Of a stretch of DNA of 64,000 nucleotides, positions 55,000 through 55,940 are shown piece by piece. The stretch lies in assembly GCA_000002435.2 (NCBI GenBank), contig CM018789.1, one strand, 5' to 3'. A program made the position numbers and the translations under genes. The notes beneath the pieces were generated by a model. That model ran no database searches, was not told the origin of the DNA, and was given only the letters and a program-made list of their open reading frames with translations. Numbering within the stretch: position 1 is the stretch's first letter; each line of letters starts with the position of its first letter. Source of the DNA: Giardia intestinalis (lineage: Eukaryota).

Positions 55000-55940
55000 C
55001 TCCGTCTGATATCTAGTGAGCACCTGCTATCTCGGATCTTGCGTCAGTCGCGACGATCTGGCCTCCACAGAATCCAAGGCCCTGGTGCTCCATGACGAAG
55101 ATCCCACGCCACGACCCCGGGTGTCCACCCCGTTCCTCGGGGTGCCTCTTCGTCTCCTCGTGGAGGGCACCATCTGTTCCATTCTCAAGGGTGCGCTCCC
55201 CATGCGCCTCTATCTTGAGGTTGTGGTACGCGTTTGTGGATGCCGGCGGAGCACTCCCATGCGTTGTGTCGGGGGAGAGGCCCACCTCTCTGCTCATGGA
55301 TCGCAGAGGTGGTCTGTCACCCAGCACGAGATCATGTCGACGCCCACCCTGTGCAGTGCGTCTGGCTCGGCTGACAGTGTGAGCTGCGTCCATCTGACAG
55401 CACACTTGGAGATGATGCTTCGGTCTGTCGAGGCAGTCAGTCCAGGGCCACCCCTCTGAAGGGTGTCATATGAAGTATCAAGAGCGATCAGGACAGGTTC
55501 ACCGAAGTCGTCTCGCTTGGCGCTCATCTACTCGAGGGTGTCAGGCACTGCCAGCTGCTGCGGCAGACCCTAGGTAGGTGACCCAGACCACCACTCTCGG
55601 TGCGGGCAGGATCAGTCCGCCTCTGCCAGCCAAGCACCCCAACTCCCATCTCTTGTCGAGGGATTCACATGGGTCACGTGTGGATCCATCTCGACCAGCG
55701 TGACAAGTGATTAGTGCCATCACTGGCTTCAGGCTCTCCGTTGCCTTGGGCGTTCCTTGAGACCAGCCAGGAAGGAGGCCTCCTGCTTCTCAGTGTTCCT
55801 ATACTTGTCAGTGTTGACCGTCGAGCCATGTCGCTTCATCAGGCCTGCCGCCTCTGTGGCTACCCCCGTTGCGTCACTGTCGTCACTGTAAAAGATGAGT
55901 GTGTCGTCAGTGTAGGCAATGAGCTTGAAGCGGCTCACTA
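55000..55940 (-). mobile_element. 5'-truncated, frameshifted non-LTR (R2/REL-endo-like) retrotransposon remnant: RT motifs C-D-E plus degenerate endonuclease region
   Basis: Minus-strand ORF 55729..55938 reads FKLIAYTDDTLIFYSDD...GSTVNTDKY...FLAG, matching the RT motif C (YxDD), the motif D NxxK region and the motif E FLG. Upstream of it the sequence turns AT-rich with no RT motifs A/B, so the element is 5'-truncated. Downstream frames (55013..55527) are GC-rich and frameshifted, with a CC...H...RRHDLVLGD segment resembling a degenerate R2-type CCHC/PD-D-K endonuclease. Confidence 0.45.

What the first reader, a model, noticed from the sequence alone, without database searches (positions are those of the whole stretch)
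55000..55940. Dead, 5'-truncated R2-like non-LTR retrotransposon fragment (YTDD reverse-transcriptase motif)
The minus-strand ORF 55729..55938 contains ...FKLIAYTDDTLIFYSDD...GSTVNTDKY...FLAG, a good match to RT motif C (xYADDxxxF, closest to the R2 AYADDLVLF form), motif D (N-x-x-K) and motif E. Upstream of it the sequence turns AT-rich with no motifs A/B, indicating 5' truncation. The downstream GC-rich sequence is frameshifted but keeps a CC..H..RRHDLVLGD segment reminiscent of the REL-endonuclease CCHC/PD-D-K region. Giardia's known LINEs (GilM/GilT, and the dead GilD family) are R2-clade elements, so this is probably a relic of one of those. It marks this region as accessory, non-core DNA.
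Basis: partly seen in the sequence, partly recalled or inferred. Interest (0 to 1): 0.6.

Follow-up and report, generated by a model that had tools for sequence, protein, structure and literature searches.

The report
Dead Giardia LINE retrotransposon fragment
This stretch is the decayed back half of an old R2-like "jumping gene" in the Giardia genome, probably of the known dead family GilD; it is ordinary genomic debris that marks a fast-changing, surface-antigen-rich part of the chromosome.

Summary
The minus-strand ORF 55729-55938 is a genuine reverse-transcriptase fragment (motifs C-E): Pfam RVT_1 E=1e-4. An exhaustive search of 1.8 billion proteins returned only two real relatives, both fragments of the same Giardia element family. 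One of these, from isolate P15, passes Pfam's RVT_1 threshold by itself.

It lacks everything upstream of motif C. It is collinear with a P15 copy through thumb, Cys-His motif, restriction-like endonuclease (RLE) and 3' UTR. It is broken by at least four frame changes, stop codons and about a dozen 10-53 nt deletions, which remove the catalytic KPD and D residues.

A frame-corrected family composite matches R2 retrotransposon proteins best among solved structures, with RT, thumb and CCHC-RH-KPD-D nuclease all aligned.

All copies recovered are defective, and the window, L011 and L015 copies lie near VSP genes, as published for GilD. No GilD reference sequence was available, so that name is inferred. 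Novelty is low: it is a known kind of element in a well-studied genome.

The parts
54770..55938 (-). Whole relic: 5'-truncated, degenerate copy of a Giardia RLE-bearing non-LTR retrotransposon, about 1.17 kb. The 5' limit lies between 55,924 and 55,953. The 3' limit lies at about 54,766-54,770.
   Evidence: Collinear DNA alignment with the P15 copy L015 5708-7203; 78% identity by blastn (84% over aligned non-gap columns) to metagenome copy L012; 5' junction alignment.
55729..55938 (-). RT fragment ORF (69 aa), carrying motifs C, D and E.
   Evidence: RVT_1 profile 148-201/205; composite residues 168-230, 52% identity, E=1e-16.
55903..55914 (-). RT motif C, YTDD (YADD in better-preserved copies).
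   Evidence: Read directly from the sequence; P0002, P0011 and L015 read IAYADD at the same place.
55804..55827 (-). RT motif D, GSTVNTDK (GLT(I/V)N.(D/N)K in other copies).
55762..55776 (-). RT motif E remnant, SFLAG (SFLGAP in other copies). A frameshift follows.
55697..55747 (-). Start of the thumb region, KATESLKPVMALITCHA, in a different frame. It is followed by a 53-nt deletion (KLTLARINV.P.A.YAP in intact copies) that L012 shares.
55566..55640 (-). Thumb/linker remnant, GVLGW..TDPAR..SGGLGHLPRV, in a third frame. It corresponds to GILGSDPKRWIEFLAAPKRNGGLGVHLPGV.
   Evidence: the NGGLGV block of the composite aligns to R2 proteins.
55306..55467 (-). Remnant of the Cys-His (CCHC) motif and the RH(D/N) motif at the start of the endonuclease domain. 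RRHDLVLGD lies at 55316-55342 in another frame.
   Evidence: composite residues 373-431; R2 alignment of the composite region.
55064..55273 (-). C-terminal half of the REL-endonuclease, PDTTH..YHNLKIEAHGERTLENGTDGALHEETKRH..IFVMEHQ. The catalytic KPDLF and VDIGVV stretches are lost in 35-nt and about 10-nt deletions just upstream and inside.
   Evidence: composite residues 461-536, 43% identity.
54770..55060 (-). 3' UTR remnant. It includes a degraded copy (54,770-54,885) of the 3' arm of the terminal inverted repeat seen in the P15 copies. There is no poly(A) tail and no target-site duplication.

Best explanation
The region holds an inactive relic of a Giardia non-LTR (LINE-like) retrotransposon. 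The element type encodes one protein with a reverse transcriptase followed by a Cys-His motif and a restriction-like (PD..D..K) endonuclease. This is the R2-like, 'GENIE'-clade architecture. From established knowledge of R2-type elements, such elements spread by target-primed reverse transcription: the endonuclease nicks the chromosome, and the RT copies the element's RNA from its 3' end into the nick. Copies that are not finished lack their 5' part. This copy keeps its 3' terminus (about 54,770) and everything back to RT motif C (about 55,940), but nothing upstream. Since then it has decayed through at least four frame changes, stop codons and about a dozen deletions of 10-53 nt, which removed the nuclease active-site residues. 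It does nothing now. The family is most probably the published dead family GilD; my recollection is that this equals 'Genie 2', whose copies carry inverted repeats. Shown here: RT homology, 5' truncation, collinearity with longer copies, R2-like domain order of the family, the defective state of every copy recovered, and the setting near VSP genes. Inferred: the TPRT origin, that the truncation arose at insertion, and the family name.
For: RT fragment. Family members and loci. Collinearity with the P15 copy from motif C to the 3' end, with lesions mapped. Family composite: RVT_1 at 90.8 bits; best solved-structure matches are R2 proteins 9nl3, 9nl2, 9dou and 8gh6 at E of about 6e-7, with RT, thumb and the CCHC-RH-KPD-VD block each aligned. 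5' boundary at 55,924-55,953 beside AT-rich flank. 3' boundary coincides with the outer end of the terminal inverted-repeat arm of P15 copies L015 and L011. Every copy seen is broken by stops, frameshifts or deletions (window, L011, L012/L013, L014 copies 1 and 2, L015, L016). VSP genes or fragments lie beside the window, L011 and L015 copies. GilD is described as dead, riddled with deletions and located next to VSPs (PMC2861651). RT and endonuclease fragments are reported at non-syntenic GC-rich islands with VSP, Protein 21.1 and NEK genes (PMC3091692). GENIE is grouped with R2, R4, NeSL and CRE, which carry a Cys-His motif after the RT (PMC2790886).
Against: No GilD or Genie 2 reference sequence could be compared; neither primary paper is held. 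The window's own nuclease remnant has no significant match to any Pfam family or solved structure, so its identity rests on alignment to the P15 copy. Microhomology at deletion junctions, a published GilD trait, was not seen: mean 0.31 nt against 0.71 nt for random placement. That test is weak, because the junctions were placed by MAFFT in sequences only 68% identical. There is no poly(A) tail or target-site duplication to confirm a TPRT insertion. The window copy shares most internal deletions with L012, which keeps 5' sequence the window lacks, so the 5' loss may be a later genomic deletion.
Confidence: 0.88

Rival explanations
1. The relic belongs to this family, but its missing 5' part was lost by a later chromosomal deletion or rearrangement, not by incomplete reverse transcription at insertion.
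For: The window copy and L012 share most internal deletions (14, 12, 53, 18, 35 and 10 nt), so they descend from one ancestor that was already damaged. L012 still carries about 700 nt of upstream RT sequence that the window lacks. The island is a rearrangement-prone setting (PMC3091692). No target-site duplication is present.
Against: The 3' terminus appears intact, and the 5' break sits cleanly against AT-rich intergenic DNA, which is the classic LINE pattern. The L012 contig ends inside the element at both ends, so orthology with the window locus cannot be tested.
Confidence: 0.35
2. It is a relic of one of the two telomeric, possibly active families (GilM or GilT), not of GilD.
For: All Giardia LINEs share the RT-plus-RLE architecture. 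The relic's family is 33.5% identical over 313 aa to a second family seen in L014 (582-aa RVT_1 ORF), so the families are related.
Against: That same 33.5% shows the relic's family is distinct from the second, better-preserved family. The window has no telomere repeats, no rDNA and no tandem head-to-tail array. Every copy of the relic's family is defective. GilM is 5,474 bp and lies in subtelomeric arrays (PMC7000408).
Confidence: 0.06
3. The YTDD ORF is a chance motif, or part of an unrelated or domesticated protein-coding gene, and not a transposon remnant.
For: The RVT_1 score of the window ORF alone is below Pfam's cut-off. The ORF and the downstream ORFs have no hits among solved structures.
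Against: Exhaustive search E-values of 1e-7 and 9e-6 to element fragments. 68-84% nucleotide identity to other copies over more than 1 kb, across frameshifts. The only open frame is 69 aa and lacks RT motifs 1 to B, so no polymerase could be made.
Confidence: 0.01

Closest known systems
GilD, the 'dead' non-LTR retrotransposon family of Giardia lamblia (Arkhipova & Morrison 2001). From my memory this equals Genie 2 of Burke et al. 2002.
   Same: Giardia host; all copies inactivated by frameshifts, substitutions and multiple internal deletions; dispersed beside VSP genes instead of at telomeres; RT followed by an RLE. P15 copies carry a 121-nt inverted repeat, which matches my recollection that Genie 2 copies carry inverted repeats of up to 172 bp.
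   Different: Identity to the reference sequence was not tested because it was unavailable. Microhomology at deletion junctions was not detected. The window copy keeps only the 3' arm of the inverted repeat.
R2 retrotransposons (R2Bm, R2Tg and others with solved structures 8gh6, 9dou, 9nl2, 9nl3)
   Same: The domain order RT, thumb, CCHC, RH(D/N), KPD, D, K nuclease is aligned by HMMER at family level. The mechanism is presumed to be target-primed reverse transcription.
   Different: Only about 31 bits of overall similarity. The Cys-His spacing in the P15 copy is C-X2-C-X7-H-X3-C. The element is not inserted in 28S rDNA, and the window contains no rDNA. The literature treats GENIE as a separate clade (PMC2790886).
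GilM and GilT (Genie 1-type), the telomeric Giardia LINEs
   Same: Same host, and the same RT-plus-RLE clade by published classification. A second family, possibly of this type, sits next to copies of the relic's family in L014.
   Different: Those families are subtelomeric, arranged in tandem arrays, about 5.5 kb long and potentially active (PMC7000408, PMC10999387). The relic is solitary, internal and dead, and its family is only 33.5% identical to the second family seen here.

Membership tests
Reverse transcriptase (Pfam RVT_1) | Significant match to the RT profile, including the catalytic YxDD of motif C | tested here: met
   Window ORF: E=1.1e-4, 22.4 bits, profile 148-201/205, a fragment scoring below the 29.6-bit cut-off. 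Its homologue P0002 scores 39.4 bits, and the family composite scores 90.8 bits.
RLE-bearing non-LTR retrotransposons (R2 group: R2, R4, NeSL, CRE, GENIE) | Cys-His motif and PD..D..K restriction-like endonuclease downstream of the RT in the same ORF | tested here: met
   Met at family level: the L015 sequence KCVLCGARMDANHIVNC..RVMRHD..QKPDLFL..AVDIGVV..SKIE is aligned by HMMER to residues 991-1082 of R2 protein 9nl3. In the window only remnants survive (CC..H..RRHD, and K..GERTL..GTDG). The KPD and VD stretches are deleted.
RLE-bearing non-LTR retrotransposons (R2 group) | No N-terminal apurinic (APE) endonuclease | not testable with these tools
   The window copy is 5'-truncated and no full-length copy of the family was recovered. 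The longest N-terminal sequence (P0008, P0005) starts just before RT motif 1.
R2 sensu stricto | Site-specific insertion in the 28S rRNA gene | tested here: not met
   No rRNA gene anywhere in the window (Rfam). The flanks are an intergenic AT-rich stretch and an ankyrin gene.
GilD | All copies dead: frameshifts, substitutions and multiple internal deletions | tested here: met
   All seven independent copies examined are defective. The window copy has at least four frame changes and about 12 deletions of 10 nt or more relative to L015.
GilD | Located in gene-poor regions next to VSP genes (PMC2861651) | tested here: met
   VSP fragment at 52706-52990 and VSP gene end at 63681-63941 in the window. 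VSP genes lie beside the L011 and L015 copies.
GilD | Deletions mediated by microhomology (PMC2861651) | tested here: inconclusive
   Mean junction microhomology is 0.31 nt against 0.71 nt for random placement. The junction positions are uncertain at 68% identity.
GilD | Sequence identity to the deposited GilD consensus or copies | not testable with these tools
   The reference sequences are not in any accessible collection, and the primary papers are not held.
Genie 2 (feature recalled from Burke et al. 2002, not verified) | Copies carry inverted repeats (up to about 172 bp) | tested here: met
   L015 arms 5114-5234 and 7083-7203 are 121 nt and 86% complementary. L011 starts with the same arm. 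The window keeps only a degraded 3' arm at 54,770-54,885, with no partner anywhere in the window.
GilM / GilT | Subtelomeric head-to-tail arrays next to telomere repeats or rDNA; potentially intact ORF | tested here: not met
   No (TAGGG)3 repeat, no rDNA and no second copy in the window. The reading frame is destroyed.

The most novel reading that the evidence does not exclude
Copies of this dead family kept spreading after they were already broken. The window copy and a copy from an unrelated metagenome share the same internal deletions yet differ by about 16% in sequence and in 5' extent. Two P15 copies share an identical inverted-repeat 5' end but have different flanks. This would mean that defective elements were mobilised in trans by another family's machinery, or copied along with VSP-island DNA. 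Because the relic ends 45-50 nt upstream of the ankyrin gene's ATG in the same orientation, its 3' end might also contribute to that gene's promoter or 5' UTR.
Probability: 0.15. Interest if true: 0.4.

Novelty: already known. Interest (0 to 1): 0.15.

Why it matters
It matters little by itself. The relic is useful as an annotation: the P15 homologue is still labelled 'hypothetical protein'. It also serves as a marker showing that the last ~12 kb of the window (from ~52.3 kb on) is a GC-rich, rearrangement-prone accessory island (VSP fragment, Protein 21.1-type ankyrin gene, NEK-type kinase, VSP gene) attached to about 52 kb of ordinary core genes. The lesions shared between copies could help date when this family died relative to the split of Giardia assemblages.

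Tried and rejected
1. Word-indexed protein search with the 70-aa ORF found nothing. That search was wasted. The third search, with P0002, worked.

2. Single-sequence searches against solved structures with the window RT ORF, the window nuclease-like ORF and P0002 gave nothing, or only chance His-tag/EF-Tu hits. Only the frame-corrected family composite reached R2.

3. Pfam on every downstream ORF, and on all three sense frames with stops masked, found no endonuclease family.

4. A JGI metagenome scan with the family alignment found no relatives.

5. Exact look-ups of flanking and internal ORFs, meant to obtain the syntenic locus in other isolates, failed. The 502-aa, 268-aa, 235-aa and 130-aa products are not on record. 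The kinase is on record only on Logan contigs of 3.8 kb or less, which do not reach the relic.

6. I considered whether the other GC-rich blocks of the window (53.15-53.7 kb; 61.05-63.62 kb) are the missing 5' part or further copies. They have no DNA or protein similarity to the relic or to any family locus, so I rejected that idea.

7. A search for target-site duplications and a poly(A) tail found none.

8. The microhomology test at deletion junctions gave no signal.

9. The primary papers (Arkhipova & Morrison 2001; Burke et al. 2002) are not held.

Full report
**Observation.** The frame-shifted string VCCQMDAAH..RRHDLVLGD is also present. GC content is about 0.59-0.63 from about 54.8 to 55.85 kb and falls to about 0.43 upstream of 55.94 kb. 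The window is Giardia: there is a VSP C-terminus ending ..CRGKA (Pfam VSP 127 bits), a VSP fragment, an ankyrin-repeat gene and a kinase-ankyrin gene.

**Is the ORF a reverse transcriptase?**
- Pfam RVT_1 matches the ORF at E=1.1e-4 (22.4 bits) on profile positions 148-201 of 205, the motif C-E end of the domain. The score is below the 29.6-bit cut-off, as expected for a quarter of a domain.
- An exhaustive phmmer search of 1.84 billion representative proteins gave only three hits. One is an unrelated repetitive protein. The other two are relatives.
- P0001 comes from an ENA metagenome contig (65% identity to the window ORF over its matched stretch).
- P0002 is EFO60974.1, 'hypothetical protein GLP15_3331, partial' of Giardia lamblia P15 (61% identity).
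- P0002 reads ..RLIAYADDILIFHSDNSDATG..RRYGLTINIDK and also carries the upstream motifs (..FHKIVLSRL....SLGITNAFNSIP..). It passes Pfam's own threshold at 39.4 bits.
- The RT assignment is therefore secure.

**The family.**
- Searching with P0002 recovered seven more fragments. They include 'Reverse transcriptase, partial [Giardia duodenalis]' (P0008) and a second P15 protein (P0007).
- Their contigs gave comparator loci:
  - L011 and L015 from P15.
  - L014 from AHHH01000176.1, with two copies of this family plus a 582-aa RVT_1 ORF of a second family.
  - L012/L013, the same copy from two metagenomes.
  - L016.
- Every copy is interrupted by stops, frameshifts or deletions.
- The second family in L014 is only 33.5% identical to this one over 313 aa.

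**Extent and anatomy of the window copy.**
- Firm homology to longer copies begins at 55,924, and at 55,953 at most under loose scoring. Upstream lies AT-rich intergenic DNA following the stop of the 502-aa gene.
- Downstream, the window is collinear with the P15 copy L015 down to about 54,770, at 68% identity. It is 78% identical to L012 by blastn and 84% over aligned non-gap columns, as far as that contig reaches.
- A frame-corrected composite protein maps onto the window in order:
  - residues 168-230 map to 55926-55741 (RT motifs C-E, E=1e-16);
  - residues 239-256 map to 55747-55697 (thumb, second frame);
  - residues 297-326 map to 55640-55566 (linker with the GGLG block, third frame);
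  - residues 373-431 map to 55467-55306 (Cys-His region);
  - residues 461-536 map to 55273-55064 (second half of the nuclease).
- The copy therefore has at least four frame changes and several stops. It also has about a dozen deletions of 10-53 nt relative to L015.
- Two of those deletions remove ..QKPDLF.. and ..VDIGVV.., the catalytic PD and D positions.

**The 3' end.**
- The P15 copy in L015 is bounded by a 121-nt inverted repeat (5114-5234 and 7083-7203, 86% complementary). L011's copy begins with the same arm directly after AT-rich flank, at 92.5% identity to L015, but with unrelated flanking DNA.
- The window retains a degraded 3' arm (54,885 to 54,770). Its homology to L015 ends at the arm's outer end, so the relic's 3' terminus looks genuine.
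- No inverted partner exists anywhere in the window. There is no poly(A) tail and no target-site duplication of 6 nt or more.
- The ankyrin gene's ATG (54,721) lies 45-50 nt further on, in the same orientation.

**What kind of element is it?**
- The frame-corrected composite, built from P0005, P0002, P0010 and L015, scores 90.8 bits on RVT_1.
- Among all solved structures it matches R2 retrotransposon proteins best (9nl3, 9nl2, 9dou R2Tg, 8gh6 R2Bm; E of about 6e-7). Group II intron and retron RTs come next.
- HMMER aligns three regions separately: the RT; the thumb (..NGGLGV..); and the nuclease block (C..C..HI..C..T...R..RH....KPDL....VD..V).
- This is the RT-plus-CCHC-plus-restriction-like-endonuclease architecture of the 'ancient' non-LTR clades. 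PMC2790886 groups GENIE, the Giardia clade, with R2, R4, NeSL and CRE.
- It is not R2 proper: the window contains no rDNA target.

**Which Giardia family?**
- Three families are published: GilM and GilT (telomeric, possibly active) and GilD (dead) (PMC10999387; PMC3091692).
- PMC2861651 states that GilD was disrupted by microhomology-mediated deletions and is found in gene-poor regions next to VSP genes.
- GilM is 5,474 bp and lies in subtelomeric arrays (PMC7000408).
- The relic's family is dead in all copies seen, sits beside VSP genes in the window, L011 and L015, and is solitary. The window has no telomere repeats or rDNA.
- My recollection, not verified because the paper is not held, is that Burke et al. 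2002 described 'Genie 2' as degenerate copies carrying inverted repeats. That fits the P15 copies.
- GilD/Genie 2 is therefore the best assignment. It rests on published description and not on sequence comparison.
- The one described trait that I could test and did not see is microhomology at the deletion junctions. That test was weak.

**How the 5' end was lost.** The clean 5' break with an intact 3' end is the classic outcome of incomplete target-primed reverse transcription. However, the window copy shares most of its internal deletions with L012, which still has about 700 nt of upstream RT sequence. The two descend from one ancestor that was already damaged. The window's 5' loss could therefore equally be a later deletion, or dead copies may have been propagated. 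The data here cannot decide, because L012 has no flanks.

**Verdict.** The finding is real and correctly interpreted, with corrected limits (about 54,770-55,940) and a corrected reading of the nuclease motifs. It is a known kind of element in a well-studied genome, so novelty and interest are low.

Noticed in passing
window 61051-63621: GC-rich block (0.60-0.66) bounded by long inverted arms, 61051-61578 and 63106-63621 (about 530 nt, 86.6% identical), around a 1.53 kb core. There is no Pfam domain in any long ORF, no Rfam hit and no similarity to the relic's family or to any fetched locus. Its 235-aa ORF is not on record in public assemblies. It lies between the NEK-type kinase gene and a VSP gene. 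Its nature is unexplained: a foldback-type element, or an inverted duplication in the VSP island.
   Followed up: partly
window 53150-53700: Very GC-rich stretch (up to 0.67) just downstream of the ankyrin gene. It has long ORFs on both strands (165 and 112 aa) but no Pfam domain and no similarity to the LINE family.
   Followed up: partly
window 52706-52990 (+): Truncated VSP fragment (Pfam VSP 33.7 bits, profile 197-281 of 397), about 2.8 kb from the relic. It has tblastx similarity to the VSP genes next to the P15 copies in L011 and L015.
   Followed up: yes
window 63681-63941 (-): 3' end of a VSP gene (Pfam VSP 127 bits, profile 323-397 of 397, ending ..CRGKA). The gene probably runs off the end of the window.
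   Followed up: yes
window 24684-24927 (-): Nuclear RNase P RNA gene (Rfam RF00009, 78 bits, full-length match), in the gene-dense core part of the window.
   Followed up: no
L015 5114-7203; L011 from 9768: The P15 copies of the family are about 2.09 kb units bounded by a 121-nt terminal inverted repeat. The 5' arm is an inverted copy of part of the 3' UTR. The two copies are 92.5% identical, share the exact 5' end and have unrelated flanks. This suggests that the short inverted-repeat form was itself once mobile.
   Followed up: partly
L014 10001-16419 (AHHH01000176.1): Three LINE copies lie head to tail on one strand: two degenerate copies of the relic's family, then a 582-aa RVT_1 ORF of a second family (33.5% identical). 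Copy 1 is interrupted at about 11.3-12.1 kb by AT-richer sequence encoding an unrelated-looking 320-aa ORF. Genes upstream in the same contig carry bacterial-looking Pfam hits (SLT, Exonuc_VII_S, Guanylate_kin), which may indicate a chimeric or contaminated contig.
   Followed up: no
window 54721-54770: The relic's 3' terminus lies only 45-50 nt upstream of the ATG of the ankyrin (Protein 21.1-type) gene, in the same orientation. The gene's short promoter region therefore abuts or overlaps the end of the element.
   Followed up: no
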